This document shows positions 11,979 to 63,048 of a stretch of 64,000 bases of DNA, one piece after another. Source of the DNA: a virus. Lineage: Duplodnaviria; Caudoviricetes. Within the stretch, counting starts at the first letter, position 1. Each line of letters starts with the position of its first letter. The stretch lies in IMG/VR virus record IMGVR_UViG_3300021958_000024; one strand, given 5' to 3'. A program made the translations under genes and the position numbers. The notes under the pieces are model-generated. The model was given only the letters and a program-made list of their open reading frames with translations, had not been told where the DNA came from and searched no databases.

Positions 11979-12848
11979 ATGTCATTCAATCATCCTATCA
12001 ACAAAACAGCACATTCTTCTGCAAAAAAGCAGAACAAAATTGCTGCTATGAAAAAATCTCCAAATGAAAACGAAAGGAAGGTTGCTGACAAAAAGTTACG
12101 TCCATCCGCAAAAGTTGATGTTCCAAGCTTTCTGAAAAACGAAGTTTCATTAGTCGATAAAATCGTAGAAGAAATCATTCAAGAGAAAAAAAATAAAGGA
12201 CTCTGGTCAAATATTCATGCTAAACGTAAGCGTGGAGAATCGCCAGCGAAACCTGGGGATAAGAATTATCCAAAGACTTTGAATGTTGAAGAAAAAGAAA
12301 ACAAAGTAACTATAGAAGATGCTGATGGCAACACATTTTTAGAAGTTGTCGATTTAATCACTCCAGATCCACTAGTTTCAGAAGGGATTGTAAGAATCCC
12401 AGCTAAAACGGGGAACATTGTTTTAGTGGGTCTTACTTGGAGAGGAAGATATCATTCAATAAAGATGTTTTTCCCACAAACAAAGTTCCCCACAAGAACT
12501 GAAGTTCAAAATGAGATAGAAAAGGTCTACCCAGGCGCACGAGTATACAGTTTTAACGTATCCGAGTATGAGCCAGGAAAACCAATGGTCCAAGTCTCTG
12601 AAGGAGCATCTTGGACAAAAAAAGAAGGAAAGAATGAATCTGGAGGACTTAATGAAAAGGGACGAAGGTCTTATGAAAAGGAAAATCCAGGATCTGACCT
12701 TAAAGCACCTTCAAAGGAGGTTGGAAATCCCAGACGGGCATCCTTCTGTAGAAGAATGAAAGGAATGAAAACAAAACTGACCTCAAAGAAAACTGCTAAC
12801 GATCCCGATAGCAGAATCAATAAGTCCCTGAGAGCATGGAACTGCTGA
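11979..12848 (+). CDS. Modular hypothetical protein with basic peptide modules
   Basis: 289-aa ORF after an ATAAATA box; modules GLWSNIHAKRKRG and WTKKEGKNESGGLNEKGR...SFCRRM...LRAWNC. Confidence 0.7.
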   Translation: MSFNHPINKTAHSSAKKQNKIAAMKKSPNENERKVADKKLRPSAKVDVPSFLKNEVSLVDKIVEEIIQEKKNKGLWSNIHAKRKRGESPAKPGDKNYPKTLNVEEKENKVTIEDADGNTFLEVVDLITPDPLVSEGIVRIPAKTGNIVLVGLTWRGRYHSIKMFFPQTKFPTRTEVQNEIEKVYPGARVYSFNVSEYEPGKPMVQVSEGASWTKKEGKNESGGLNEKGRRSYEKENPGSDLKAPSKEVGNPRRASFCRRMKGMKTKLTSKKTANDPDSRINKSLRAWNC

Positions 12849-12849
12849 T

Positions 12850-13185
12850 ATGAAATCATTCAAACAGTTTTTATCTGAAAGTATCACTATTAATGGAGAT
12901 TTCAACGGAACTCTTAACGTTGGAGATTCTCATCAAGAACAGACTAAAGAAGAAAATAGTTTCTATGCTGATCTTGTTTGGGAAGGAAAAATATATAGAA
13001 TACAGTTCATGACAAATGAAAATATTCTTCCAACTCCAGCAAACTTAGCAAACCATTTGCAAGATGAGTATCCAGGGGGAATAGTTCATAATGTTTATCC
13101 GATTACAGAAAAAAATAAAAACTATAGAGTTAAATCTGTACAGAGGTATCAACCAGAAGCATTGACATGGAAAACTGAATCTTGA
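12850..13185 (+). CDS. Hypothetical protein with capsid-targeting-like N-terminus (MKSFKQFLSE)
   Basis: ORF in late operon; N-terminus resembles the T4 internal-protein CTS. Confidence 0.7.
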   Translation: MKSFKQFLSESITINGDFNGTLNVGDSHQEQTKEENSFYADLVWEGKIYRIQFMTNENILPTPANLANHLQDEYPGGIVHNVYPITEKNKNYRVKSVQRYQPEALTWKTES

Positions 13186-19373: not shown

Positions 19374-21020
19374 ATGTCGAGATTATTTGGTTTCTCTATT
19401 GAGGACGATAAAAATAAAATCTCCAAGAATGTAGTTTCCCCCGTTCCTCAAAACAATGAGGACGGGGTTGACCACTATCTTACGAGTGGATTTTTTGGTA
19501 CTTCAATAGATATTGAAGGTGTCTATAAGACAGAACACGATTTAATCAAAAGATATCGTGAGATGTCGCTTCATCCAGAAGTTGATAGTGCTATTGAGGA
19601 TATTGTAAATGAAGCGATTGTATCCGATACTTATGATATCCCAGTAGAGATAGAACTGTCAAACTTAAATGCTAGTGATGGATTAAAGAAAAGAATTCGA
19701 GAAGAGTTTAAAACAATATTGGAAATAATGGACTTTGATAAAAAGTCCCATGAAATCTATAGAAACTGGTATGTTGACGGAAGGATTTATTATCATAAAC
19801 TTATTGATGTAAAAAATCCTCAAGAAGGAATACAAGAGTTAAGGCACATTGATGCCTTAAAAATGAGATATGTAAGAACAAAGAAGAAGAAAAATAGATT
19901 AGATATCAACATCACAAATGGAAGATCTGACGATCTCGTGAATTTGGATTTTCCAGTTATTGATGAGTATTTTGAGTATAGTCCAAAGACTAGTGGATTA
20001 AATACACAGAATAATCCAACTGGTTCTATCAAAATTGCAAAGGATTCTATTGCATATTGCAGTTCTGGACTAGTTGATAGAAACAAAAATACAGTTCTAT
20101 CGTATCTGCACAAATCAATCAAAGCAGTAAATCAACTTCGTATGATCGAAGATTCTCTTGTAATCTATAGATTATCAAGAGCACCAGAACGTCGTATTTT
20201 TTATATTGATGTTGGAAACCTTCCAAAGATAAAAGCGGAGCAATATCTTCGTGACGTAATGATGCGTTATAGAAACAAGTTAGTTTATGATGGAAGCACA
20301 GGGGAGATCAAAGATGACAAAAAATACATGTCAATGCTTGAAGATTTTTGGTTGCCTCGCAGAGAAGGCGGAAGGGGAACAGAAATCACAACTCTGCCAG
20401 GTGGCCAAAACCTTGGAGAAATCACTGATATTGAGTACTTTAAGAAAAAACTATACAGAGCACTTAATGTTCCACCCTCAAGAATGGATGGAGAAGGTGG
20501 GTTTAACTTGGGCAGATCTTCTGAAATCCTAAGAGATGAACTTAAGTTCACTAAGTTTGTTGGTCGTTTAAGAAAGAGATTCTCAAATCTTTTTAATGAC
20601 ATTTTAAAAACACAACTTATTTTGAAGAATGTTGTGACCCCTGAAGATTGGAAAAAGATGTCAGAACATATTCAATATGATTTCTTATATGATAATCATT
20701 TCTCAGAACTAAAAGAATCTGAGTTAATGGCTGAAAGATTAAATCTTGCAGTGACTGCAGAACCTTATATTGGCAAGTATTTTTCTCAAGACTACGTTAG
20801 AAGAAAAATCATAAGGCAGACTGATGAAGAAATCGTTGAACAAGATAAACTAATCAAAAAAGAAATCAAAGATGGCGTTATTCCTGATCCAAATGCGCCA
20901 ATAGATCCAGAAACTGGTATGCCTTTAGATGACACTATGAATGGTGAAATGGGAGCTGTTCCTTTAGATCCTGGTATTAATGAAAAACCAGTAGAAGCTC
21001 CCAAAGGAGGAGAAATATAA
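19374..21020 (+). CDS. gp20: Portal vertex protein gp20
   Basis: YRLSRAPERRIFYIDVGNLP, EDFWLPRREGGRGTEITTLPGG. Confidence 0.97.
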   Translation: MSRLFGFSIEDDKNKISKNVVSPVPQNNEDGVDHYLTSGFFGTSIDIEGVYKTEHDLIKRYREMSLHPEVDSAIEDIVNEAIVSDTYDIPVEIELSNLNASDGLKKRIREEFKTILEIMDFDKKSHEIYRNWYVDGRIYYHKLIDVKNPQEGIQELRHIDALKMRYVRTKKKKNRLDINITNGRSDDLVNLDFPVIDEYFEYSPKTSGLNTQNNPTGSIKIAKDSIAYCSSGLVDRNKNTVLSYLHKSIKAVNQLRMIEDSLVIYRLSRAPERRIFYIDVGNLPKIKAEQYLRDVMMRYRNKLVYDGSTGEIKDDKKYMSMLEDFWLPRREGGRGTEITTLPGGQNLGEITDIEYFKKKLYRALNVPPSRMDGEGGFNLGRSSEILRDELKFTKFVGRLRKRFSNLFNDILKTQLILKNVVTPEDWKKMSEHIQYDFLYDNHFSELKESELMAERLNLAVTAEPYIGKYFSQDYVRRKIIRQTDEEIVEQDKLIKKEIKDGVIPDPNAPIDPETGMPLDDTMNGEMGAVPLDPGINEKPVEAPKGGEI

Positions 21021-21050: not shown

Positions 21051-21224
21051 ATGGATGAACTAATCGACATGATCATTGCTGATAAATCTGCTTCTAGTGT
21101 CAGTGACAAAATCAAAGACGTTTTATATTCAAAAGCGGCTGAAAGAGTAGATTCTTTAAAACCATCAGTAGCAAGTTCTATTTTTGGCGATGAAGAATCT
21201 GAAGATGACACTGAAGAAGAATAA
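21051..21224 (+). CDS. Small acidic-tailed protein, probable prohead core component (gp67/gp68 position)
   Basis: MDELIDMIIADKSASSVSDKIKDVLYSKAAERVDSLKPSVASSIFGDEESEDDTEEE*, 57 aa, follows a TATAAATA at ~21016. Confidence 0.7.
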   Translation: MDELIDMIIADKSASSVSDKIKDVLYSKAAERVDSLKPSVASSIFGDEESEDDTEEE

Positions 21225-21245: not shown

Positions 21246-21524
21246 ATGACACAAAGAACAAGACTGATTGCAGGAGAAACTGCATTAACAACATCCAGCG
21301 GTGATGTGAATACACTTTCAAATGCTACTTGCATTCGAGTTTGGAATGGTCATACAGATACTGCAACTGTAAGCATTGCTAAGAGTACAGAATCTGGTTA
21401 TGCAGGTATTGCATCATTAACGATGGCATCTAAAACTGTTGAGTTTTTAGAAAAAGATGCACAGGATATCATCTGGTCAAATAATACTGCAGTATTGGCG
21501 GCAAAAGTAGCATTCACAAACTAA
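21246..21524 (+). CDS. Hypothetical protein (head module)
   Basis: 92-aa ORF between gp20 and gp21. Confidence 0.65.
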   Translation: MTQRTRLIAGETALTTSSGDVNTLSNATCIRVWNGHTDTATVSIAKSTESGYAGIASLTMASKTVEFLEKDAQDIIWSNNTAVLAAKVAFTN

Positions 21525-21528
21525 TCCA

Positions 21529-22179
21529 ATGAAACTAATCAGAGAAGAAATCGAAAAAGTTGAAGTTCTTACAGAAGGAACTGGAAGAGAAGCAAAACTT
21601 TACATCAAAGGACCATTCTTACAAGCAGAATGTGTAAATCGTAATGGACGTATGTATCCTATGCCCATTATGGAGAAAGAGGTAAAGCGTTATAACGAAC
21701 AATATGTCCAAAAAGGACGTGCTCTTGGAGAACTTGGTCATCCTGATGGTCCCACAGTAAACCTTGATAGAGTTTCACATAAAATTGTAGAACTTTATAA
21801 AGTAGGAAATAACTTTGAAGGTAAGGCACAAATCCTTTCTACACCAATGGGCAAGATCGCAGAATCTTTACTCAAAGATGGTGTAACTCTTGGAGTTTCT
21901 TCCCGTGGCATTGGTTCTTTAGTTACAACTAAAGAAGGATATAAGCAAGTTGGTGAAGATTTTATGTTAGCAACTGCTGCTGATATCGTTGCTGATCCAT
22001 CTGCACCTGATGCATTTGTTCAAGGAATCATGGAAGGAAAAGAATGGGTTTGGGATGGTGGTGTTCTTCGTGAAAAGCTCGCAGAACAAACAAAACGCAA
22101 AATCAATACCCTTGTTGATCAAAGAAGATTAGAAGAGCATAAGATTGATCTCTTCAATAACTTTTTGAATTCACTATAG
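21529..22179 (+). CDS. gp21: Prohead core protease gp21
   Basis: NRNGRMY, ALGELGHP, GVSSRGIGS, DIVADPSAPDA. Confidence 0.96.
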   Translation: MKLIREEIEKVEVLTEGTGREAKLYIKGPFLQAECVNRNGRMYPMPIMEKEVKRYNEQYVQKGRALGELGHPDGPTVNLDRVSHKIVELYKVGNNFEGKAQILSTPMGKIAESLLKDGVTLGVSSRGIGSLVTTKEGYKQVGEDFMLATAADIVADPSAPDAFVQGIMEGKEWVWDGGVLREKLAEQTKRKINTLVDQRRLEEHKIDLFNNFLNSL

Positions 22180-22254: not shown

Positions 22255-23397
22255 ATGTCTAGTGGAGAAAACTTACAAGAAATGGAAGTAGGCACTGCTC
22301 AATCCAAGACTGCCGTTAATTCTGGTGCTAAATCAGCAGATCCAATGCCTTCCGCAGGAAGCAATGCATCTGGTGTTTCAACTCCAGGTCAAACTGGTAG
22401 TTGGGAAGATTTAGGCGGTCCTACTCCAGAAAACTATAAGTCTGATGACGATTCAGCAAAGTTCAAAGAACCTTCACTTAAAACAGTGAAGGATGTGGTA
22501 AACAGAGGTGCTAAACCTGCTGAACCAATGCAGAAACTTACTGGAGCAGTTAAGGAAGAAGAAGAGATTGAAGATGAAGTAATCTCTGAAGATGATGCAG
22601 TCGAAACCGAAGAGGATCAAGAAGTTGTATCCGAAGAGGAAGTAGAAGAAGTAGATGCTGAAGAAGAGTATGACATCGAAGATGATGTTAATGCTATTCT
22701 CGAAACTGACGAAGTAGAACTCTCCGAAGAGTTTAAAGAAAAAGCAAAACTAGTATTTGAATCTGCACTCAAAGCTAAAGTTGGAGAAATCCAAGAAGCT
22801 CTTGAGATCAGATATGAAGAAAGACTCGCTGAAGAAGTTGCTGAAATCAAAGAAGCACTTCAAGAGCGTGTTGATTCTTATCTAGAGTATGTTGCTGATG
22901 AGTGGGTTTCTGAAAATCAACTCTCAGTAGAGCAAGGTCTGAAAGAAGAACTCTCCGAGTCCTTCATGTCAGGTATACATGATCTTTTTGAAGCACATTA
23001 TGTACACATCCCTGAAGATAAATATGATGTTCTAGATAGCATGACAGAAAAACTTGATGAAATGGAGACAAAACTCAACGAGCAGATTGAGAAGAATGTT
23101 TCCCTAAACAAGCGTCTCGCAGAGTCGGTTGCTGACGGAATCTTCGATGATATTGCAGAGGGTCTAGCACTCTCGCAAAAAGAAAAGCTCGCTTCACTTG
23201 CAGAAAGTGTTGAGTTTGGAAGTGAGACAGAATATCGTGAAAAGTTGGTAGCATTAAAGGAATCATATTTCCCTGCAAAAAATGCTAACCCCAAGGTGGT
23301 TTCCGAGAACCTTAGCGAAGAAGTAGAAACTCCTGAATTTTATTCCAGAGAGATGGATGCTTACCTAGCAATGGTAAACAGAATCGCTAAAAACTGA
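22255..23397 (+). CDS. gp22: Prohead core scaffold protein gp22
   Basis: Very acidic; LSEEFKEKAKLVFESA, VDSYLEYVADEW. Confidence 0.93.
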   Translation: MSSGENLQEMEVGTAQSKTAVNSGAKSADPMPSAGSNASGVSTPGQTGSWEDLGGPTPENYKSDDDSAKFKEPSLKTVKDVVNRGAKPAEPMQKLTGAVKEEEEIEDEVISEDDAVETEEDQEVVSEEEVEEVDAEEEYDIEDDVNAILETDEVELSEEFKEKAKLVFESALKAKVGEIQEALEIRYEERLAEEVAEIKEALQERVDSYLEYVADEWVSENQLSVEQGLKEELSESFMSGIHDLFEAHYVHIPEDKYDVLDSMTEKLDEMETKLNEQIEKNVSLNKRLAESVADGIFDDIAEGLALSQKEKLASLAESVEFGSETEYREKLVALKESYFPAKNANPKVVSENLSEEVETPEFYSREMDAYLAMVNRIAKN

Positions 23398-23438: not shown

Positions 23439-24875
23439 ATGTTCCATTCAGAGCATCTGCAGGAAAAGTGGGCACCCCTTCTTAATGCTGGCGATCCTAT
23501 CAGGGATAACCACAGAAGAGCAGTAACCGCAGTCCTGCTAGAGAACCAAGAAAAATTCCTAAGAGAGCAACAAGCTTTCAACCAATCAGGATCATTCCTA
23601 ACTGAATCACCAACCAACTCAGCTGGTACAGGTGGTTATACTGGAGCTTCCGCAGAAGGCGGTCCAGTTGCAGGTTTCGATCCAGTTCTGATCTCCTTGA
23701 TCAGACGCTCCATGCCTAACCTGGTTGCATATGACCTCGCAGGCGTACAACCAATGAGCGGTCCTACTGGACTAATCTTCGCAATGCGTTCACGCTACAC
23801 TGATCAGAACGGTCAGGAAGCACTATTTGACGAAGCAGATACTCGCTTCTCTGGTCAGAACGCTGCAGGCAGCCTTGCACAAACAGGTTATACCAGCCCA
23901 ACAGGCGATGTTGGTATCGGTACTACCGCAGCAGCATCTGGCAACACTAACCCTGGTCTTCTAAACGCTTCTGGCGAATATAACGTTTCTGGTGGCATGA
24001 ACACTGGAGATGCAGAAGGTCTAGGTTATGGTGATAACTCTGGTTTCAACGAGATGGCCTTCTCAATCGAGAAGATCACCGTTGCTGCAAAATCCAGAGC
24101 ACTCAAAGCTGAGTATTCACTAGAACTCGCTCAAGACCTTAAGGCAATCCACGGTCTAAACGCTGAAGCAGAACTTGCTAATATCCTTTCTAGCGAGATC
24201 CTTGCTGAAATCAACCGTGAGGTTATCCGTAGCATCTATATCACTGCAGAAGCTGGTGCTCAGCAGAACGTTGCTACCGCAGGTGCATTTGACCTAGACG
24301 TTGACTCCAACGGTCGCTGGTCAGTTGAGAAGTTCAAAGGTCTACTCTTCCAAATCGAGCGCGATGCAAACCAGATCGCAACCAGAACTCGTCGTGGAAA
24401 GGGCAACATCATCCTCTGCTCTGCAGACGTTGCTTCAGCTCTAACCATGGCAGGTGTACTCGATTACACCCCTGCACTCAATGCAAACCTAAGCGTAGAT
24501 GAGACTGGCAATACATTTGCTGGAACTCTAATGGGCAAGTATCGCGTATACATTGACCCATATGCTGCAAACCTAACCAACCGTGCTGGCGGCGCTGGTA
24601 ACGTTGGTGGTAACCAGTACTACGTTGTTGGTTATAAGGGTTCTTCACCTTATGACGCAGGTCTCTTCTATTGCCCATATGTACCTCTCCAGATGGTACG
24701 TGCAGTTGGCGAGAACAGCTTCCAGCCTAAGATCGGCTTCAAGACCCGTTACGGTCTAGTTGCTAACCCATTCGCTGAAGGTGGACTTGCTTCAGGCGCA
24801 TCAACAACCCTTGGTCGCCTTGCAGCAGATACCAACCGCTACTACAGAAGAGTTCTTGTTAAGAACCTCATGTGA
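23439..24875 (+). CDS. gp23: Major capsid protein gp23
   Basis: VQPMSGPTGLIFAMR, KSRALKAEYSLELAQDLKAIHGL, FQPKIGFKTRYG; processing site FLTE/SP. Confidence 0.98.
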   Translation: MFHSEHLQEKWAPLLNAGDPIRDNHRRAVTAVLLENQEKFLREQQAFNQSGSFLTESPTNSAGTGGYTGASAEGGPVAGFDPVLISLIRRSMPNLVAYDLAGVQPMSGPTGLIFAMRSRYTDQNGQEALFDEADTRFSGQNAAGSLAQTGYTSPTGDVGIGTTAAASGNTNPGLLNASGEYNVSGGMNTGDAEGLGYGDNSGFNEMAFSIEKITVAAKSRALKAEYSLELAQDLKAIHGLNAEAELANILSSEILAEINREVIRSIYITAEAGAQQNVATAGAFDLDVDSNGRWSVEKFKGLLFQIERDANQIATRTRRGKGNIILCSADVASALTMAGVLDYTPALNANLSVDETGNTFAGTLMGKYRVYIDPYAANLTNRAGGAGNVGGNQYYVVGYKGSSPYDAGLFYCPYVPLQMVRAVGENSFQPKIGFKTRYGLVANPFAEGGLASGASTTLGRLAADTNRYYRRVLVKNLM

Positions 24876-49127: not shown

Positions 49128-49150
49128 AGACTCCAAAGGAGTCTTTTTTT
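49128..49150 (+). terminator. Rho-independent terminator abutting a TATAAATA late promoter
   Basis: AGACTCC-AAA-GGAGTCT plus T run. Confidence 0.8.
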
Positions 49151-49185
49151 ATAAATATTTTTATGTAAAAGTATCTTGTAACAAA

Positions 49186-50286
49186 ATGGACACGGCAAGT
49201 CTTAATGAACTAATGGAAGCATTTAATGCTATCTATGATGAGGAAGTACGCGAAGAATATCTTGAAGAAGATTATGCTTTCTTAGACGATTTTAATGATG
49301 AAGAGATTGAAGAAATCGTAGAAGAAGTTATCTATGATCTTCTTGATGAAGGTTATGAGGTAGAAGAACTAAAAGACATTTTTGAAGAGACCTTCCTGAC
49401 AGAAGCAAGAGTAACTACTGGAACTGGAAGTCTTAGAGCAGCAAAAGCGAGACAGGCTTCTAGAAAATCTGCCAGAAGAGAAGCAAGAAAAGAAAAGATC
49501 AAGAGTGCTGCAAAAGGAGTTCTTTCTGCTATCAAGAAAGGTGCTAAGAGAGTAGCAAAGAAAGTTGGCATTGGTGCTGAGAAAGCAAAGCAAGCAATGC
49601 AAGGTAGAGATAGATCTGCTGAAAGATCTACTAGAAGAGCAAAGTCAAAAATGAAGAGTGCTGCTGCGAAGAATATTCGCAAGGCAGTAACTGGTAAAGC
49701 AGCAGCACCTAAAGCAGTAGAGAAGAAAGTATCTAGAAAGGATGTAACTGGATCTACTGGTGTAGGCGCAGCAGGAACTATTCGTTCTAAGTCTTCAGGT
49801 GGATCTGGTGGTGGACCTTCAAGCAAAGGTAGAGCACTTCCTCCTAAAGGGGCAACTTCAAGAACTGATGCTGGCAATCTAAGAAAGTCAAGTCAAGTTA
49901 CTTTTGCACTCTCAAGAGCAGCAAAAGCAGGTAAGAAGAGAATGGAGAAACTAAACAATAGTTTCGATATGTTTGATGTTGTAGCTGACTTCCTAATCTC
50001 AGAAGATCTTGCTGATGATATTAATGAAGCAAACTGGATGATGGTAAATGAGGTTACTGCAGAGGATATTGAACAGATTGTTGAACTCTATGGACTTGAG
50101 GAACTATTTGGTCTAGGTAAAAAAAAAACTCCTAAACCAGTAGAGTATATGGGTAGATCTATGGAACCTGAAAAAAAGAAAGAATCTTCTTCTTTTACTG
50201 CAGACCGTAGATCACCTGAAAAAACAGTTCATGAGTTTGGTAAGAAGGGATATACTGCAAAGTATAAGACACGCGGAAAACTTTGA
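49186..50286 (+). CDS. Acidic/basic modular protein, putative capsid-internal polyprotein
   Basis: Alternating D/E-rich and K/R/A-rich blocks; late promoter upstream. Confidence 0.75.
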   Translation: MDTASLNELMEAFNAIYDEEVREEYLEEDYAFLDDFNDEEIEEIVEEVIYDLLDEGYEVEELKDIFEETFLTEARVTTGTGSLRAAKARQASRKSARREARKEKIKSAAKGVLSAIKKGAKRVAKKVGIGAEKAKQAMQGRDRSAERSTRRAKSKMKSAAAKNIRKAVTGKAAAPKAVEKKVSRKDVTGSTGVGAAGTIRSKSSGGSGGGPSSKGRALPPKGATSRTDAGNLRKSSQVTFALSRAAKAGKKRMEKLNNSFDMFDVVADFLISEDLADDINEANWMMVNEVTAEDIEQIVELYGLEELFGLGKKKTPKPVEYMGRSMEPEKKKESSSFTADRRSPEKTVHEFGKKGYTAKYKTRGKL

Positions 50287-50298
50287 TTATTAAGGCGG

Positions 50299-50706
50299 AT
50301 GCCAAGAAAAAGAGTTCGGGATCAGAAAAAATATAAGAGTAAAAATCCTTCTAGGATGGATACTCTTTTTGAAAGAATAGAATATCTTAGTGATCCCGAA
50401 GATATTATGGTTGAAATTATTGATGTTCTTAAAGATTTTGATGTTGCTCCAGACGTTGGAAACTACTATACTTTTATATACAACGCAAAAACCCCCAGAA
50501 AACTATATGATCAGCATCCATTAGTTGCTGTTCTTGCCGTTGATAACTGGGGGGTTGTTGGTCTAAACTTTCATTGGGTAGGTCTTGATGGAGCTGATGT
50601 AAGAAACTATACTTGGCCAGAAGTGGCAGGATATTTTCATAAAGTTTCAAATGAAGAAATAATGACTATGCGTAGCATAAAATATGCAAAGTTTTTGAGG
50701 AAATAA
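50299..50706 (+). CDS. gp2 (DNA end protector)-like protein
   Basis: GNYYTFIYNAKT...YDQHPLV...GLNFHW. Confidence 0.55.
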   Translation: MPRKRVRDQKKYKSKNPSRMDTLFERIEYLSDPEDIMVEIIDVLKDFDVAPDVGNYYTFIYNAKTPRKLYDQHPLVAVLAVDNWGVVGLNFHWVGLDGADVRNYTWPEVAGYFHKVSNEEIMTMRSIKYAKFLRK

Positions 50707-50717
50707 ATATATATATA

Positions 50718-51884
50718 TTGATGACAAAGATGAAAAAGTTCTCTAGTTTTATATTCGAAGCACAAGCATCTCTAGCGTCCCAAAGAGCACAAAAAATGGG
50801 ACTGCGTGGGGATGGGCATGGTGGCTGGTATAATGCTACTGGGGAGTTTATTGCAAAAACTGAAGGTGGGGATTTAGTATTCTACACTAAAGGTCAAAGA
50901 CCTGGAAGAGATGTTCCTAATCCTGCAGATAAAAAACCAAAGATTGAAAGAAATCCAGAACCATCTTCTCCAGAACCTGATGAGAGTGGTGGGGCAAAAC
51001 TTACAATAGTATTTGGGAGATTTAATCCTCCAACAAGAGAGCATAAACAACTGTTTATTTCAGCAAGAAATATTGCTGGTAACTCCGATTTGAAAATATA
51101 TCCATCAAGGATTCAAGACAATGAAAGAAATCCAATCAAACCAGATCCAAAGATTGGATTTATGAAAAAAATGTTTCCTGATTTTAAGGATAATATTGTT
51201 AATGACGAAAAGATGATTACTATCTTTGATGTATTGCAAGCGGCTGAAAATGACGGATATAAAGAAGTTGCTATTGTAGTTGGTGCAGATAGATTGTCTG
51301 AGTTTAGAAGTCTTGCACAAAAACACAATGGAAGTGTATATAACTTTAATGATATTACGGTAGTTGCTGGTGGAGAAAAAGATTCTGATACAGAACTATC
51401 ATCAAAGATGAGACAAGCTGCTGCAGAAGATAATCTGAATTCTTTTAGATCTGGACTTCCTAGAGGATATAAAGATGTTGAGAAAGTATTTAAAGCAGTT
51501 CAGTCTGGATTAGGTATTAGGACTCAAAAAGAAGAATATCAACTTTGGAAGATTGCTCCAAAAGTTCATTATAGTGCATTAAGAGAAAACTATATTGGTG
51601 GAAATATTTTTAAGGTTGGATCTATTGTTGAAAATATAAACACTGGATTAAGGGGAAAAATTATTCGTAGAGGAACCAACTATCTTATTTGTGCAACAGA
51701 AGATGATCTTATGTTTAAATCATGGATTACCGATGTAGTTGAGAAGAAAGATTTTACTAATGTATGTGGTGTAGTTGCTAGCGAGAGAGAAGTTGGAACT
51801 CCTTCACTTACTCAATACACTATGAAAATGGCAGATGTGAAGAGCATTAGGAATTTTATAAATAAGTATAAGGCAAAAAAGTAA
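50718..51884 (+). CDS. Cytidylyltransferase-like (HIGH-superfamily) protein
   Basis: FGRFNPPTREH, VVGADR, SSKMR; probable start MKKFSSFIFE at 50730. Confidence 0.8.
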   Translation: MMTKMKKFSSFIFEAQASLASQRAQKMGLRGDGHGGWYNATGEFIAKTEGGDLVFYTKGQRPGRDVPNPADKKPKIERNPEPSSPEPDESGGAKLTIVFGRFNPPTREHKQLFISARNIAGNSDLKIYPSRIQDNERNPIKPDPKIGFMKKMFPDFKDNIVNDEKMITIFDVLQAAENDGYKEVAIVVGADRLSEFRSLAQKHNGSVYNFNDITVVAGGEKDSDTELSSKMRQAAAEDNLNSFRSGLPRGYKDVEKVFKAVQSGLGIRTQKEEYQLWKIAPKVHYSALRENYIGGNIFKVGSIVENINTGLRGKIIRRGTNYLICATEDDLMFKSWITDVVEKKDFTNVCGVVASEREVGTPSLTQYTMKMADVKSIRNFINKYKAKK

Positions 51885-51896
51885 ACACTTATACTA

Positions 51897-54689
51897 ATGA
51901 CATTACATCTTAACGATATCTCCAAGATTTATCTTGAGCAGATTGCTGAGGCAAAAGGTGCTGGCGAAGACCAAGAGCATAAGTACCCCAAAAAATCTGG
52001 TAAGAAGTCAAAAGATTACGATGGTGATGGCACTGTCGAAGATGAAACTGATGAATATGCTGGTGTTAAGGATAACGCCATTAAAAAAGCAATGGGCAAA
52101 TCCGTATGCGATGAATGCGGAAAGAAAAAGTGTGAATGTGATAATGTGAAGGAAGAAAGAAATGTTCATGGGCAAATCGAAGTTCCCTCTGGAGATCTAA
52201 AGTCTCTTGTAAAGAAAGCAGTAGCAAGAATCGATACTGATGTTGATGGTGATGTAGAGCATAATGATAAGCATAAGGGTGAGTATGGTGAGTTTGTTCC
52301 GACACCAGATGGTAAGAGAACATTTAGTGGACCTAAAACTAGAAAAGAATCATTCTCTAACTGGAGAAGTGAACTAAATGAAGTTCTGGAAGAAGATGGC
52401 AAAGAACAAAAGTTCAAAGAAATGCCTAAGAACCAGACAAATACTATTAAAATCAATCCAGTTCTAGAGAACTCTATTGCTTCTATTGATGGTGTAGTTA
52501 TAGAAGATGTTGAGTTTGATGCACCTGAACCAACTAATATCTTTGAGGATTTTGTTGACGCAGAGATTTACTTTATGGACGATGAGATGATTTATGACAT
52601 CGTTGAAGAATCTATTGTAGAACTACTCGATGAGGGGTATGATTTAGATTATATTGTAGAGTCTATTGTATCTTCTGTAGATTATAGTCTAGAAGTTTTA
52701 ACTGAAGGAGTTGCTGAAACTGCTGCAAGAAAACGTTCTAAGGATGTAAAGAGAACTCAACTAAGAGCAAAAGCAAAGACTTTTAGACCAGATCCTGCAA
52801 CTCTTAGAAGAAATGCAAGACTTAAAGCAGTAAAAAGTGCTGCTCAAACTGCAGGTGAAAAGATTAAATCTGGTGTAAAGAAAGCAGGAAAAGCTGCTAC
52901 TTATGGTGCTGGTTATGCTGCTGGTGCTACTGTTAGAGCAGCTAGAAGACTAAGAGATAAAGCTAAAGAAGGATATGCAAGAGGATCTCAAGGATCTTCA
53001 TCTTCAACAGGTTCATCTGCATCTACATCCTCAGATTCATCTACATCCTCAGATTCATCTACATCTGCACCAACATCGTCTACTTCAGATAAGAAGAGAA
53101 GTTTACTGAGCAGAGTTGGTTCTGGTCTAAAGAAAGCAATCAAAGGAACTGTTAGAGTTGGTGCTCGCGCTGTTGAGGTTGGTGCTGGAGCAGTTGCTGC
53201 TGGTGCTAAGAGTGTCAGAAAGAGAATGTCTGAAGAGTTCTATCAAGAATCTTGTGAGATTGCTGCTGAGTATTTTATTGAAGAAGGTTTAAATGAAGAG
53301 GGTGTAGCAATCCTTATTGAAGAACTTGGTGTTGATGAGTTTGCTGAGTTTGTTTATGATCTTGGTGAAGAAATCATGCTCACCGAAGAACTAAATGAAG
53401 CAAGAGCGGGTGGAGTTAAAGTTGCTCCTGTAACTAAGACTGGCAAGTCTGTAGGATCCCTCAAAGGAGGTCCTAGAACTTCTGCTATCAAGCGTCTTCG
53501 TAAGGAAAAAGCAGCAAGAAGAGATGCAGAAGCAAAAGCATCTGCAGCAAAACCTTCAGGAATGAAGGCAGCACTTCAGAGTCAATCAAAAACTGCTGCT
53601 AAGAGAAACACTGCAGTATCTAAAGCAAAGAGTGCTCAACCTAAGAAGAAAGGTATTTTGGATAGAGTTGCTGGTGAAGTTCTGAAAGGAATGGAGCGCC
53701 ATAAGAAGGCAATGGCAGCTGCTAGAGAGACTGGTAAAACCATTTCTAAGGCAGCAAAAGTAGGTGCTAAAGGTGCTCAAGAGTTTGGTAAAGGATTCTC
53801 TTCTGGCGTTAAAACTACTGCTAAAGCAGCAAAAACCGCAAAGAAAGTTTTTTCCGATGAAGTAGAATATGATTCCAATCTTGTTGATGAAGGTCTTAAA
53901 CAAGCACGTAAAAATGTAGGTGCTTCTAAATGTTGGCCTGGAAAAGTTGCCAAAGGCACTAAAATGAAAAATGGTCGAGAAGTACCTAACTGTGTAGATG
54001 AGGGTATAGACCTAAAAAAAGCATCAATGGGCGAGGTGATCGACGATTTCCGTCAGTCATCCGCCCCACAGTTCAAAGGAAAATCTGATAAGAATATTCG
54101 CCAAATGGCAATCGCAGCTAAGTTAAATACTGAATCTGCTGATACTGGAGTTGAACCAAGTCCTCAAGAACTGATGCTACAAAGAAAAGCATCTATGACA
54201 AGACAGCAGATTGAAAGAGCAAGGGTTAAAAACATTAACACTGCAAGACAAGATGCTGTAAAGAAAGATAAAGAGGAAACAAAAGAGGAAGTGAAGTTTT
54301 CTGGAAACTATGGGGGTCCTCTATATGCTCCGCATCCTGATCTAGTTGAAGCTCGTCGCGGTCCTGCGGCACCTGGTAAAGAGGAAAAGGGTAAGGCAGC
54401 AGCAAAATCTCTTGCTGCTATGAGAGAGCGCCAGAAAGTTCTTGATAAGCATAAGGAAAAGACTGGTAGGAAACTTGATATTTCTAAATCGCCTGAAGGT
54501 AAGGCACATGCTAAAAACTTCCCAGGTTCTCGCCAAGAGAAAAAGATGAGGGGTGATAAAGAGACTCCTTTAGAGACTCACAACAGAAGAGTCAACAAAA
54601 CGACTGCTCGTATTGTCAAGCATGGTTACACTTCTAAAGAAAAGAAAGAAGTGCAATCTATGGCTAAGCATACTTCAAGATATGATTGA
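51897..54689 (+). CDS. 930-aa acidic/basic modular protein, putative capsid-internal polyprotein
   Basis: Repeated acidic spacer then (L/V)xE then basic segment; TATAAATA at ~51857. Confidence 0.75.
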   Translation: MTLHLNDISKIYLEQIAEAKGAGEDQEHKYPKKSGKKSKDYDGDGTVEDETDEYAGVKDNAIKKAMGKSVCDECGKKKCECDNVKEERNVHGQIEVPSGDLKSLVKKAVARIDTDVDGDVEHNDKHKGEYGEFVPTPDGKRTFSGPKTRKESFSNWRSELNEVLEEDGKEQKFKEMPKNQTNTIKINPVLENSIASIDGVVIEDVEFDAPEPTNIFEDFVDAEIYFMDDEMIYDIVEESIVELLDEGYDLDYIVESIVSSVDYSLEVLTEGVAETAARKRSKDVKRTQLRAKAKTFRPDPATLRRNARLKAVKSAAQTAGEKIKSGVKKAGKAATYGAGYAAGATVRAARRLRDKAKEGYARGSQGSSSSTGSSASTSSDSSTSSDSSTSAPTSSTSDKKRSLLSRVGSGLKKAIKGTVRVGARAVEVGAGAVAAGAKSVRKRMSEEFYQESCEIAAEYFIEEGLNEEGVAILIEELGVDEFAEFVYDLGEEIMLTEELNEARAGGVKVAPVTKTGKSVGSLKGGPRTSAIKRLRKEKAARRDAEAKASAAKPSGMKAALQSQSKTAAKRNTAVSKAKSAQPKKKGILDRVAGEVLKGMERHKKAMAAARETGKTISKAAKVGAKGAQEFGKGFSSGVKTTAKAAKTAKKVFSDEVEYDSNLVDEGLKQARKNVGASKCWPGKVAKGTKMKNGREVPNCVDEGIDLKKASMGEVIDDFRQSSAPQFKGKSDKNIRQMAIAAKLNTESADTGVEPSPQELMLQRKASMTRQQIERARVKNINTARQDAVKKDKEETKEEVKFSGNYGGPLYAPHPDLVEARRGPAAPGKEEKGKAAAKSLAAMRERQKVLDKHKEKTGRKLDISKSPEGKAHAKNFPGSRQEKKMRGDKETPLETHNRRVNKTTARIVKHGYTSKEKKEVQSMAKHTSRYD
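53020..53065 (+). repeat. 18-bp in-frame tandem repeat (2.5 copies) encoding STSSDS
   Basis: CATCTACATCCTCAGATT x2 plus CATCTACATC. Confidence 0.85.
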
Positions 54690-54994: not shown

Positions 54995-55528
54995 ATGGCA
55001 CTCTGGGGTAATAAAGATCTTGTATATAATGAAGGAACAGTTTCCGTCAACCTTGAAACGGGAGTCATTGACGGTGTAGTAGGTGCAACCACCTTTACAT
55101 CTGCTGTTTCAGAAGGTGATGTTGTTACAGTCGGGACTGGGGCAACATATGGTTATGCAGTGGTAATCGGAGTTACCTCTACCACTCTTTCGATTGCTTC
55201 TACAGCAGGATTTGTTTCTGGTTTAACAACCGTACCTGCTGGAGCAACTTATTTTGTTTCACAGGAACCAATCTATACTGTTGGTGACTCCCATTATCAG
55301 GCACCTGAAGCTAAGTCTGATTACACTTCTAGTGTATATGGTGTGGATGAGATTGAAGTTGGTGCAGCAGCAACAACAGCGTATGCAGTAACACATGGTG
55401 GATGGGTAGGCATCACCACTTACATGGATATGCACGATAATCTAAGAGTTAAGAACGAAGTCCTAGTTGCAGGTGGAATCCTAACAACTACTGACGCTCC
55501 TGGCGATGCTTACTTCCCAGGCAACTGA
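54995..55528 (+). CDS. Putative virion structural protein
   Basis: MALWGNKD...VYGVD..E...HGGWV...RVKNEVLVA; late promoter. Confidence 0.7.
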   Translation: MALWGNKDLVYNEGTVSVNLETGVIDGVVGATTFTSAVSEGDVVTVGTGATYGYAVVIGVTSTTLSIASTAGFVSGLTTVPAGATYFVSQEPIYTVGDSHYQAPEAKSDYTSSVYGVDEIEVGAAATTAYAVTHGGWVGITTYMDMHDNLRVKNEVLVAGGILTTTDAPGDAYFPGN

Positions 55529-62432: not shown

Positions 62433-62487
62433 TGGATTATATTAATAACTTTCATTATAAATATTTTGAGAGACTTTTGGAAAGAAT

Positions 62488-63048
62488 ATGAAAACATTCC
62501 AAGAATTTATGATAGAATGCTATTCCATTCAGGAAACATCTTTAAATAGAATTCGTTCTACGTCGCAGAAAGGTGGTATGGCTATCCTATCTGGACAGAG
62601 AGGAGATAAGTCTTCCAAAGAAAATAAAGAAAGAAGCAAGAGAACTGAAAGAAGGATTCGTGGTGCTGGTCTTCCTGGTCCCACAAAAGTTTCTGGAAGA
62701 TATACGGAGAATCCTGGAACATCTGATGAGAAAAAGGTGGGAGAGAAGTCTCATGTAGTTTCTTCTGGTAAGATGGGCAAAAGGAAGTTTAAAAAGACAA
62801 TTGAGAAACTGGGTACAGAGGCTGGACTTAAACAGAAAAAGAATGTAAAATCAAGTTCAAGCAAAGATGATCAGGACTCAGTTCTGATCCAACGAAAACC
62901 AGGAGGATCTGCTACACTTAAAGGAACTTCGAAAACATCTTGGCCTGGTAAAGGTAAAAATGTTAAAGTGGGGAAAATGAAACCAGGACGCACTGGTGAA
63001 TTTGATACAAAAGTTAAAAACAAAACGTTTACTTATGAAAAAGACTAA
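62488..63048 (+). CDS. Basic protein with T4-type capsid targeting sequence (putative internal head protein)
   Basis: MKTFQEFMIE N-terminus; TATAAATA at 62456-62463. Confidence 0.75.
   Translation: MKTFQEFMIECYSIQETSLNRIRSTSQKGGMAILSGQRGDKSSKENKERSKRTERRIRGAGLPGPTKVSGRYTENPGTSDEKKVGEKSHVVSSGKMGKRKFKKTIEKLGTEAGLKQKKNVKSSSSKDDQDSVLIQRKPGGSATLKGTSKTSWPGKGKNVKVGKMKPGRTGEFDTKVKNKTFTYEKD

What the first reader, a model, noticed from the sequence alone, without database searches (positions are those of the whole stretch)
49186..50286. Second acidic/basic polyprotein sharing a leader module with the 930-aa protein
Seen: the acidic N-terminus DDFNDEEIEEIVEEVIYDLLDEGYEVEEL...FLTE/ARV closely parallels FMDDEMIYDIVEESIVELLDEGYDLDYI...VLTE/GV in the 930-aa protein. 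It is followed by about 185 K/R/A-rich residues, a second acidic module (FDVVADFLISEDLADDINEANWMM...IVE..GLEE) and a second basic tail. Both proteins begin with a similar helix (LNELMEAFNAIY / LNDISKIY). Inference: a reusable 'LLDEGY' acidic leader acts as a core-targeting or chaperone domain for swappable basic cargo.
Basis: partly seen in the sequence, partly recalled or inferred. Interest (0 to 1): 0.75.

Follow-up and report, generated by a model that had tools for sequence, protein, structure and literature searches.

The report
Cyanophage head-cargo precursor with protease joints
A late gene of a T4-like marine cyanophage encodes alternating acidic and very basic segments joined at a motif identical to the phage's own capsid-protein cutting site, so it is probably packed into the head and cut to leave histone-like DNA-binding pieces; no cut has been measured.

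Summary
ORF 49186-50286 (366 aa) shares a real, composition-corrected similarity with the 930-aa neighbour (BLASTP E=2e-9). The match covers the acidic 'LLDEGY' helix hairpin, the junction and the first ~45 basic residues.

The window is a new T4-like cyanomyophage that also holds gp20, gp21 (prohead protease), gp22 and gp23. The acidic/basic junction FLTE|ARV repeats gp23's maturation site (GSFLTE|, aligned with the T4 site). The glutamate is invariant in all 23 aligned homologues and in the 34-sequence module alignment.

[LI]xE motifs, the T4 gp21 recognition motif, are most over-represented in four of the 51 window ORFs: gp22, gp21, this ORF and the 930-aa ORF. A TATAAATA late promoter sits 29 nt upstream. 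The S-SCSM1 orthologue is annotated 'virion protein' in a genome whose virion proteins were called by mass spectrometry.

Best reading (about 0.6): a T4 internal-protein-like precursor, packaged and then cut by gp21.

The 'reusable leader for swappable cargo' idea is only partly supported. The module is internal in most relatives and is always followed by the same kind of basic tract.

The scan had already reached a similar reading for the 930-aa sister gene on this same window. It found nothing like this ORF on other DNA.

The parts
49129..49149 (+). Terminator-like hairpin (6-bp stem GACTCC/GGAGTC, loop AAA) followed by a T run, closing the upstream gene
   Evidence: Read directly from the sequence
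49150..49157 (+). T4-type late promoter motif TATAAATA, 29 nt before the ATG
   Evidence: The same motif precedes gp22 (22204), the 930-aa ORF (51857) and the ORF at 54995 (54953).
49186..50286 (+). CDS, 366 aa (P0001): precursor with leader, acidic module, basic tract, second acidic module and basic tail
   Evidence: 37 homologues. The syntenic S-SCSM1 ORF89 is annotated 'virion protein'.
49186..49218 (+). Residues 1-11, a leader ending L-M-E|A; putative propeptide
   Evidence: The Mxxxx[FL]xxL[MIVY]E|AY pattern is conserved in the homologue alignment and in 35 distinct N-termini from related loci. Two homologues have Leu instead of Glu.
49219..49404 (+). Residues 12-73, the acidic 'LLDEGY' module (helix-EGY-helix) ending at the junction F-L-T-E73
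   Evidence: In the AF2 model of the module the core has pLDDT about 90 and the junction is below 50. The segment is dense in [LI]xE sites.
49405..49959 (+). Residues 74-258, a basic K/R/A/G/S-rich tract (about +42, pI 12) with no [LI]xE site; putative mature DNA-associated polypeptide
   Evidence: The AF2 model shows long helices plus disorder at low confidence.
49960..50103 (+). Residues 259-306, the second acidic module (FDxFDVVxxFLxSEGxAxxxxEAxWxMxNE), the hallmark of this gene family
   Evidence: Found in 38 ORFs of related loci. E=2e-11 against S-SCSM1 ORF89. Three short helices with pLDDT 65-72.
50104..50283 (+). Residues 307-366, the basic C-terminal tail (+10) after an L-E-E site
50299..50706 (+). 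Neighbour: gp2-like DNA end protector
   Evidence: phrog_429, E=2.4e-17
50730..51884 (+). Neighbour: cytidyltransferase/NMNAT-like protein starting MKKFSSFIFE|A, a T4-type capsid targeting sequence pattern
   Evidence: compared with T4 IPII and IPIII. The orthologue is detected in S-SCSM1 and S-CREM2 virions (PMC9602691, PMC10665884).
51897..54689 (+). Neighbour: 930-aa multi-module protein (P0002) carrying the same cassette at residues 213-270, junction VLTE|GV
   Evidence: E=2e-43 against S-SCSM1 ORF92, annotated 'virion protein'.
21529..22179 (+). gp21 prohead protease, the presumed processing enzyme; its own N-terminus contains VLTE|G
   Evidence: phrog_207, E=1.4e-78; sequence
23595..23606 (+). 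gp23 residues 53-56, F-L-T-E: the maturation cleavage site by alignment with T4 gp23
   Evidence: alignment with T4 gp23. T4 cleavage specificity and the 65-residue gp23 propeptide are from PMC9026906 section 2.5.

Best explanation
The ORF encodes a late-expressed precursor of head-internal proteins, comparable to the T4 internal proteins.

Inferred mechanism:
1. The precursor is incorporated into the prohead core.
2. The gp21-type prohead protease cuts it after Glu in [LI]-x-E motifs. One cut removes the 11-residue leader (LME|A). One cut is at the invariant acidic/basic junction (FLTE|ARV). Further cuts fall at the many sites inside the acidic helices, which are shredded like scaffold protein.
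3. The site-free basic tract of about 185 residues (pI 12) survives and stays with the packaged DNA as a histone-like counter-ion. It may be ejected with the DNA.

Shown here: the sequence anatomy, conservation of the motifs, the match to the gp23 site, the late promoter motif, and homology to a protein annotated as a virion protein.

Inferred: location in the head, the actual cleavage, DNA binding and ejection.
For: 1. The phage has the T4 head machinery: portal, gp21 protease, gp22 scaffold and gp23.
2. gp23 reads GSFLTE|, in register with the T4 gp23 site. This ORF has the same FLTE| at the acidic/basic junction.
3. E73 is invariant in 23 homologues down to 23% identity and in the 34-sequence module alignment across both gene families; the leucine two residues before it is nearly invariant. 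In 112 cluster representatives the junction reads P3 L93/I5, P1' A107, P2' K/T/R, P3' V100.
4. [LI]xE over-representation ranks gp22 (z=5.0), this ORF (4.3), gp21 (4.3) and the 930-aa ORF (3.8) above all 47 other window ORFs, which score 2.0 or less.
5. The enrichment survives shuffling within the acidic segments alone: 12 observed against 5.0+-1.8, p=0.0002. Across 104 representatives it is 633 against 309+-13, while the basic tracts are mildly depleted at 32 against 45+-6.
6. TATAAATA lies 29 nt upstream, as it does before gp22.
7. The syntenic S-SCSM1 ORF89, ORF91 and ORF92 are annotated virion proteins. The genome paper identified virion proteins by mass spectrometry (PMC9602691).
8. The same phage uses T4-type targeting leaders elsewhere: MKKFSSFIFE|A on the neighbouring enzyme, conserved in about 50 loci; MKSFKQFLSE|S; MKTFQEFMIE. 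Compare T4 MKTYQEFIAE|A.
9. In the AF2 model of the module the junction is flexible, pLDDT below 50, next to a confident hairpin.
Against: - No cleavage or head location has been measured for this protein or any orthologue. The S-SCSM1 supplement holds no peptide-level data.
- The S-SCSM1 orthologue lacks the LLDEGY cassette, so its virion annotation covers the gene family, not the cassette in this family.
- The leader (MD...LxE|A) is not the canonical MK.[YF]..F[IL].E targeting sequence.
- [LI]xE is a short motif, and its enrichment could partly reflect helical acidic sequence.
- The gene lies among replication genes, not in the head module, although the T4 internal protein genes are also scattered.
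- There is no detectable homology to the T4 internal proteins.
Confidence: 0.62

Rival explanations
1. It is a virion component that is not proteolytically processed, or not head-internal. It could be, for example, a neck, tail or DNA-exit-associated disordered protein. The conserved LxEA(K/R)V would then be a structural or interaction motif.
For: The virion annotation of orthologues does not say where in the particle they sit. The residues after the junction (A-K/R-V-T-x-G) are as conserved as those before it, which a pure cleavage site would not need.
Against: The junction tetrapeptide equals the gp23 site. The [LI]xE density signature is shared only with gp22 and gp21. The neighbouring proteins carry T4-type targeting leaders.
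Confidence: 0.15
2. It is an auxiliary prohead core or scaffold component, functionally like gp67/gp68. The acidic helices would be the working part, helping core assembly or head-size determination. The basic tracts would be secondary.
For: The acidic, [LI]xE-dense helices resemble gp22 in composition and motif density. T4 core proteins are cut into several fragments (PMC9026906).
Against: The phage already has a gp67-like ORF (21051-21224) and a further small ORF between gp20 and gp21. The LLDEGY cassette is absent from 27 of 41 orthologues of this gene, so it is dispensable. There is no homology to gp22.
Confidence: 0.1
3. It is a non-packaged, histone-like DNA-binding protein made late in infection to compact or protect phage or host DNA. 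The acidic modules would act as autoinhibitory DNA mimics.
For: The basic tract is extreme (pI 12, A/K/R/G/S-rich) and is paired with acidic segments.
Against: Orthologues are annotated virion proteins from CsCl-purified particles. The junction and the leader fit prohead protease sites. Acidic and basic content do not co-vary across homologues.
Confidence: 0.08
4. One reading: the LLDEGY module is a portable leader that targets or chaperones interchangeable cargo into the capsid.
For: The module is shared by two gene families and present in only a subset of one of them. phrog_764, annotated cytidyltransferase, matches the module region of both proteins, which hints at fusions with an enzyme. 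Other modules are also shuffled among these neighbouring proteins.
Against: The module is internal in 99 of 112 representatives. It is always followed by the same kind of basic tract, with a homologous start. Pfam finds only DUF3008 (12 of 72) and one S-AdoMet lyase among the long carriers.
Confidence: 0.1

Closest known systems
Phage T4 internal proteins IPI, IPII, IPIII and Alt (capsid targeting sequence plus gp21 processing)
   Same: Late genes scattered outside the head module. A short N-terminal segment ends in L/I-x-E followed by Ala. The body is basic. T4 IPII reads ...FIAE|ARV and this ORF's junction reads FLTE|ARV. The same phage carries near-canonical targeting leaders on other genes.
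   Different: No sequence homology. The leader is MD...L-x-E|A, not MK.[YF]..F[IL].E. The protein has four or five alternating acidic and basic modules with an internal junction site, not a single small globular protein. Packaging and cleavage are not shown.
T4 prohead core proteins gp22, gp67 and gp68
   Same: Acidic helical segments unusually dense in [LI]xE, the feature of proteins that gp21 degrades into small peptides (PMC9026906 section 2.5).
   Different: Here the acidic segments are covalently joined to long, site-free basic tracts. There is no homology to gp22, and the cassette is dispensable in many orthologues.
Processed inner-body and ejection proteins of giant phages (phiKZ, 201phi2-1, SPN3US)
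   Same: Many head proteins are cut after Glu by a gp21-related protease, which removes propeptides (PMC9026906 section 3.2).
   Different: Different phage lineage and different motif. No sequence relationship was tested here.
S-SCSM1 ORF89, ORF91 and ORF92 virion proteins (Kyanoviridae)
   Same: Syntenic orthologues. ORF89 shares the leader (E=2e-4) and the second acidic module (E=2e-11). ORF92 matches the 930-aa ORF at E=2e-43.
   Different: ORF89 lacks the LLDEGY cassette and the long basic tract. The paper as searched says nothing on processing or targeting; literature searches for targeting sequences in cyanophages found nothing relevant.

Membership tests
T4-type internal head proteins (targeting propeptide plus gp21 processing) | N-terminal propeptide of about 7-19 residues ending in L/I-x-E | tested here: met
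   Residues 9-11 read L-M-E|A. The pattern is conserved in the homologue alignment and in 35 distinct N-termini. Two homologues have Leu for Glu.
T4-type internal head proteins (targeting propeptide plus gp21 processing) | Canonical targeting pattern M-K-x-[YF]-x-x-F-[IL]-x-E | tested here: not met
   This ORF starts MDTASLNELME. The canonical pattern is met by the neighbouring ORF at 50730 and by ORFs at 12850 and 62488.
T4-type internal head proteins (targeting propeptide plus gp21 processing) | Basic mature polypeptide | tested here: met
   Residues 73-258 have net charge +42 and pI 12.0.
T4-type internal head proteins (targeting propeptide plus gp21 processing) | Late transcription | tested here: met
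   TATAAATA at 49150-49157, 29 nt before the ATG. This is a motif only, not expression data.
T4-type internal head proteins (targeting propeptide plus gp21 processing) | Physically inside the mature head, and cleaved by the prohead protease | not testable with these tools
   The only support is that orthologues are annotated virion proteins in S-SCSM1. No peptide-level data are held.
T4-type internal head proteins (targeting propeptide plus gp21 processing) | Sequence homology to T4 IPI, IPII, IPIII or Alt | tested here: not met
   The Pfam scan found nothing and the PHROG scan found only phrog_764.
Prohead core/scaffold proteins (gp22-like) | Homology to gp22 | tested here: not met
   No phrog_237 hit, whereas the window's own gp22 hits it at E=8.6e-102.
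Prohead core/scaffold proteins (gp22-like) | Acidic helices over-rich in [LI]xE | tested here: met
   z=4.3 for this ORF, beside gp22 at 5.0 and gp21 at 4.3. Local shuffle p=0.0002.
Acidic-junction-basic cassette (profile A3, defined here) | Helix-EGY-helix acidic hairpin, then [LI]xE|A[KRT]V, then a basic tract | tested here: met
   The profile finds 338 clusters at E<=1e-3.
S-SCSM1 ORF89-type virion protein family | Conserved leader plus the FD..D.V..FL.SEG...EA.W.M.N module, located upstream of the cytidyltransferase gene | tested here: met

The most novel reading that the evidence does not exclude
The acidic hairpin, junction and basic tract together form a self-contained, movable 'pro-protamine' packaging cassette of marine cyanomyophages. 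The hairpin would dock the precursor in the scaffold core. The head protease would cut at the junction and shred the hairpin. The released histone-like polypeptide would neutralise and organise the packed genome and enter the host with it. This would be a second, natural encapsidation and processing module distinct from the 10-residue T4 targeting sequence. It could be inserted into different virion proteins.
Probability: 0.25. Interest if true: 0.7.

Novelty: new variant of a known kind. Interest (0 to 1): 0.55.

Why it matters
T4-like cyanophages are among the most abundant viruses in the ocean, yet what fills their heads besides DNA is hardly described. Published virion proteomes list these proteins only as unknowns.

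A conserved, unannotated cassette family (338 clusters, no Pfam model for the cassette) with a protease-site junction would do three things:
- It would identify the likely DNA-associated internal proteins of these phages.
- It would extend the T4 rules for targeting and processing to a distant branch.
- It would explain how the cytidyltransferase/NMNAT-like enzyme gets into virions, through its near-canonical targeting leader.

It also gives directly testable cleavage sites for re-analysis of existing mass-spectrometry data.

Tried and rejected
- Pfam on this ORF and its neighbours: no family.
- Full-length AF2 model: pLDDT 53.5, helices plus disorder, not usable for fold search.
- Foldseek of the module model against the PDB: no match.
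- ESM Atlas: only viral hypothetical clusters.
- Homology between the first (LLDEGY) and second acidic modules: hhalign aligns only 9 columns, P=0.0016, probability 16%. This is suggestive but not established.
- Similarity of the N-terminal helices of the two proteins: P=0.024 over 8 columns, weak.
- Charge balancing between the acidic and basic parts, as a test of the chaperone idea: no correlation.
- S-SCSM1 supplement searched for peptide-level evidence: none held.
- Literature on targeting sequences or internal proteins in cyanophages: nothing relevant in the library. Sullivan 2010 does not discuss internal proteins, and its only use of 'cleavage' is in the reference list.
- tblastn of this ORF and of a typical family member against isolate phage genomes: only S-SCSM1 was found, probably because the low-complexity filter masks most of the protein.
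- I could not identify which single representative carries the S-AdoMet lyase domain.

Full report
**Context.** The window is a T4-like cyanomyophage with no close isolate. Its gp43 polymerase is 73% identical at best, to S-SRM01, S-SCSM1 and S-SM2. It carries the T4 head genes: portal 19374-21020, gp21 prohead protease 21529-22179, gp22 scaffold 22255-23397 and gp23 major capsid protein 23439-24875.

The finding lies in a block of + strand genes:
- this ORF, 49186-50286, 366 aa (P0001)
- a gp2-like DNA end protector, 50299-50706
- a cytidyltransferase/NMNAT-like gene, 50730-51884
- the 930-aa ORF, 51897-54689 (P0002)

**Observation.**
- BLASTP aligns residues 13-125 with residues 207-332 of the 930-aa protein: 32% identity, E=2e-9 after compositional adjustment.
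- The acidic half alone gives E=2e-6 and the basic half alone E=0.002. The shared unit therefore crosses the acidic/basic boundary.
- Segment charges are -27 (residues 1-72), +42 with pI 12 (73-258), -15 (259-306) and +10 (307-366).
- The proposed similarity of the two N-terminal helices is weak, P=0.024 over 8 profile columns.

**Relatives.** A protein search found 37 homologues, none with a Pfam domain.

In their alignment the Glu of the junction (E73 in F-L-T-E|A-R-V) is invariant in all 23 sequences, down to 23% identity. The leader Mxxxx[FL]xxL[MIVY]E|AYxAVY is also conserved.

I fetched 80 viral loci around cytidyltransferase homologues. They show two gene families:
- An upstream family of 41 ORFs carries the leader and/or the second acidic module (38 carry that module). 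Only 14 of these ORFs carry the LLDEGY module.
- The 33 ORFs I assigned to the downstream family, which were picked out by carrying the module, hold it internally.

Every module is followed by +14 to +32 net charge in the next 100 residues.

A 34-sequence alignment across both families (A3) has an invariant Glu at the junction. The Leu two residues before it and the E-G-Y turn are nearly invariant.

A profile of A3 searched against 1.84 billion representative proteins finds 338 clusters at E<=1e-3 and 158 at E<=1e-10. Among 112 representatives with a complete module:
- the junction reads L/I (98) - x - E | A (107) - K/T/R - V (100)
- the module is N-terminal in 13 and internal in 99

All complete modules precede a basic tract. 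Pfam on the 72 long carriers finds only DUF3008 (12) and one S-AdoMet lyase.

**Link to the head protease.** T4 gp21 cuts after Glu in L/I-x-E. It removes 7-65-residue propeptides from virion proteins and shreds the core proteins (PMC9026906 section 2.5).
- The window's gp23 reads GSFLTE|S, exactly in register with T4 gp23 GSFLTE|A. This is the same tetrapeptide as this ORF's junction.
- T4 IPII reads MKTYQEFIAE|ARV.
- The window's gp21 itself begins with ...VLTE|G, which is the junction of the 930-aa protein.

I scored all 51 window ORFs for over-representation of [LI]xE against shuffles. The top four are gp22 (z=5.0), this ORF (4.3), gp21 (4.3) and the 930-aa ORF (3.8). No other ORF exceeds 2.0.

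The enrichment holds when only the acidic segments are shuffled: 12 observed against 5.0+-1.8, p=0.0002. The basic tracts contain no site.

Across 104 representatives the acidic modules hold 633 sites against 309+-13 expected. The following basic tracts hold 32 against 45+-6.

**Expression and virion evidence.**
- A terminator-like hairpin at 49129-49149 is followed by TATAAATA at 49150-49157, 29 nt before the ATG. The same motif precedes gp22, the 930-aa ORF and the ORF at 54995.
- In S-SCSM1 the syntenic ORF89, ORF91 (NMNAT) and ORF92 are annotated 'virion protein'. That paper found 45 virion proteins by mass spectrometry of CsCl-purified particles (PMC9602691).
- ORF89 matches this ORF at the leader (E=2e-4) and at the second acidic module (E=2e-11), but it lacks the LLDEGY cassette.
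- ORF92 matches the 930-aa ORF at E=2e-43.
- S-CREM2 also has its cytidylyltransferase and two adjacent unknown proteins in the virion proteome (PMC10665884).

**T4-type targeting leaders in this phage.**
- The cytidyltransferase most likely starts at ATG 50730 with MKKFSSFIFE|A.
- About 50 distinct related loci show MK[SNKQ]F..F[LI].E|A. This has the same length as T4 MKTYQEFIAE|A and the same residues at positions 4, 7, 8 and 10. In T4, positions 4 and 7 govern targeting and positions 8 and 10 govern processing (PMC9026906 section 2.6).
- Two further window ORFs start MKSFKQFLSE|S (12850) and MKTFQEFMIE (62488).

**Structure.** The full-length AF2 model is poor (pLDDT 53.5): helices and disorder. 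The module alone gives a confident helix-turn-helix core with pLDDT about 90 and a flexible junction below 50. It has no PDB match.

**Interpretation.** The best-supported reading is a T4 internal-protein-like precursor. It is made late, built into the prohead core, and cut by gp21 at the leader, at the junction and within the acidic helices. This leaves a basic polypeptide of about 185 residues with the DNA. Head location, cleavage and DNA binding are all inferred.

The cassette is shared and sporadically present, but it is mostly internal and always comes with its own basic tract. A simple charge-balance test gives no support for a neutralising-chaperone role.

**Earlier notes of this scan.** The notes gave a similar reading for the 930-aa sister gene, and I tested that here. 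They also noted the targeting-type leaders at 50730 and 62488. I confirmed the first across about 50 loci and the second by translation only. A look-up by sequence found nothing like this ORF on other DNA.

Noticed in passing
window 50718-51884: The cytidyltransferase/NMNAT-like gene most likely starts at ATG 50730 rather than TTG 50718. It then begins MKKFSSFIFE|A. About 50 distinct related loci show MK.F..F[LI].E|A, which has the length and key positions of the T4 capsid targeting sequence. This would explain why NMNAT-like enzymes keep appearing in cyanophage virion proteomes.
   Followed up: yes
window 12850-13185: A 111-aa ORF (phrog_1742, unknown function) starts MKSFKQFLSE|S, another T4-type targeting leader. 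It lies in the structural region, next to a 289-aa ORF (11979-12848) that shares five PHROGs with the 930-aa protein: 3477, 28131, 11470, 22379 and 27523.
   Followed up: partly
window 62488-63048: A 186-aa very basic ORF starts MKTFQEFMIE, identical to the T4 IPII/IPIII leader at 7 of 10 positions. A TATAAATA motif lies at 62456.
   Followed up: partly
loci L054, L058, L060, L070, L074 (cytidyltransferase ORFs of 482-488 aa): Some cytidyltransferase homologues carry a C-terminal insert (...NLKKLVKKA.NR.D.NIDGFVDKEDPKVGPYGAFIP...). It resembles a segment of the 930-aa protein's N-terminal region (...DLKSLVKKAVARIDTDVDGDV...GEYGEFVP...). Modules therefore appear to be shuffled among these neighbouring virion proteins.
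   Followed up: no
representatives of profile A3 (alignment A4): Of 72 long cassette-bearing proteins, 12 also carry DUF3008 (PF11450). One carries an S-AdoMet lyase domain (PF23780, E=3.4e-7). I could not identify which protein it is.
   Followed up: partly
window 21051-21224 and 21246-21524: Two small ORFs lie between the portal and protease genes. The first (57 aa, with an acidic C-terminal tail) follows a TATAAATA at 21016 and looks like a gp67-type prohead core protein. The gp21 N-terminus reads MKLIREEIEKVEVLTE|G, with several [LI]xE sites.
   Followed up: no
proteins P0035 (641 aa) and P0044 (592 aa): Two homologues of this ORF carry an extra N-terminal unit of helix, acidic module, LxE and basic tract, like those of the 930-aa protein. 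The units can therefore be stacked in tandem within one gene.
   Followed up: partly
window 49353-49877 (- strand): A 174-aa antisense ORF lies inside the basic tract. It is rich in A, P and L and is most likely a by-product of the biased codons on the + strand.
   Followed up: no
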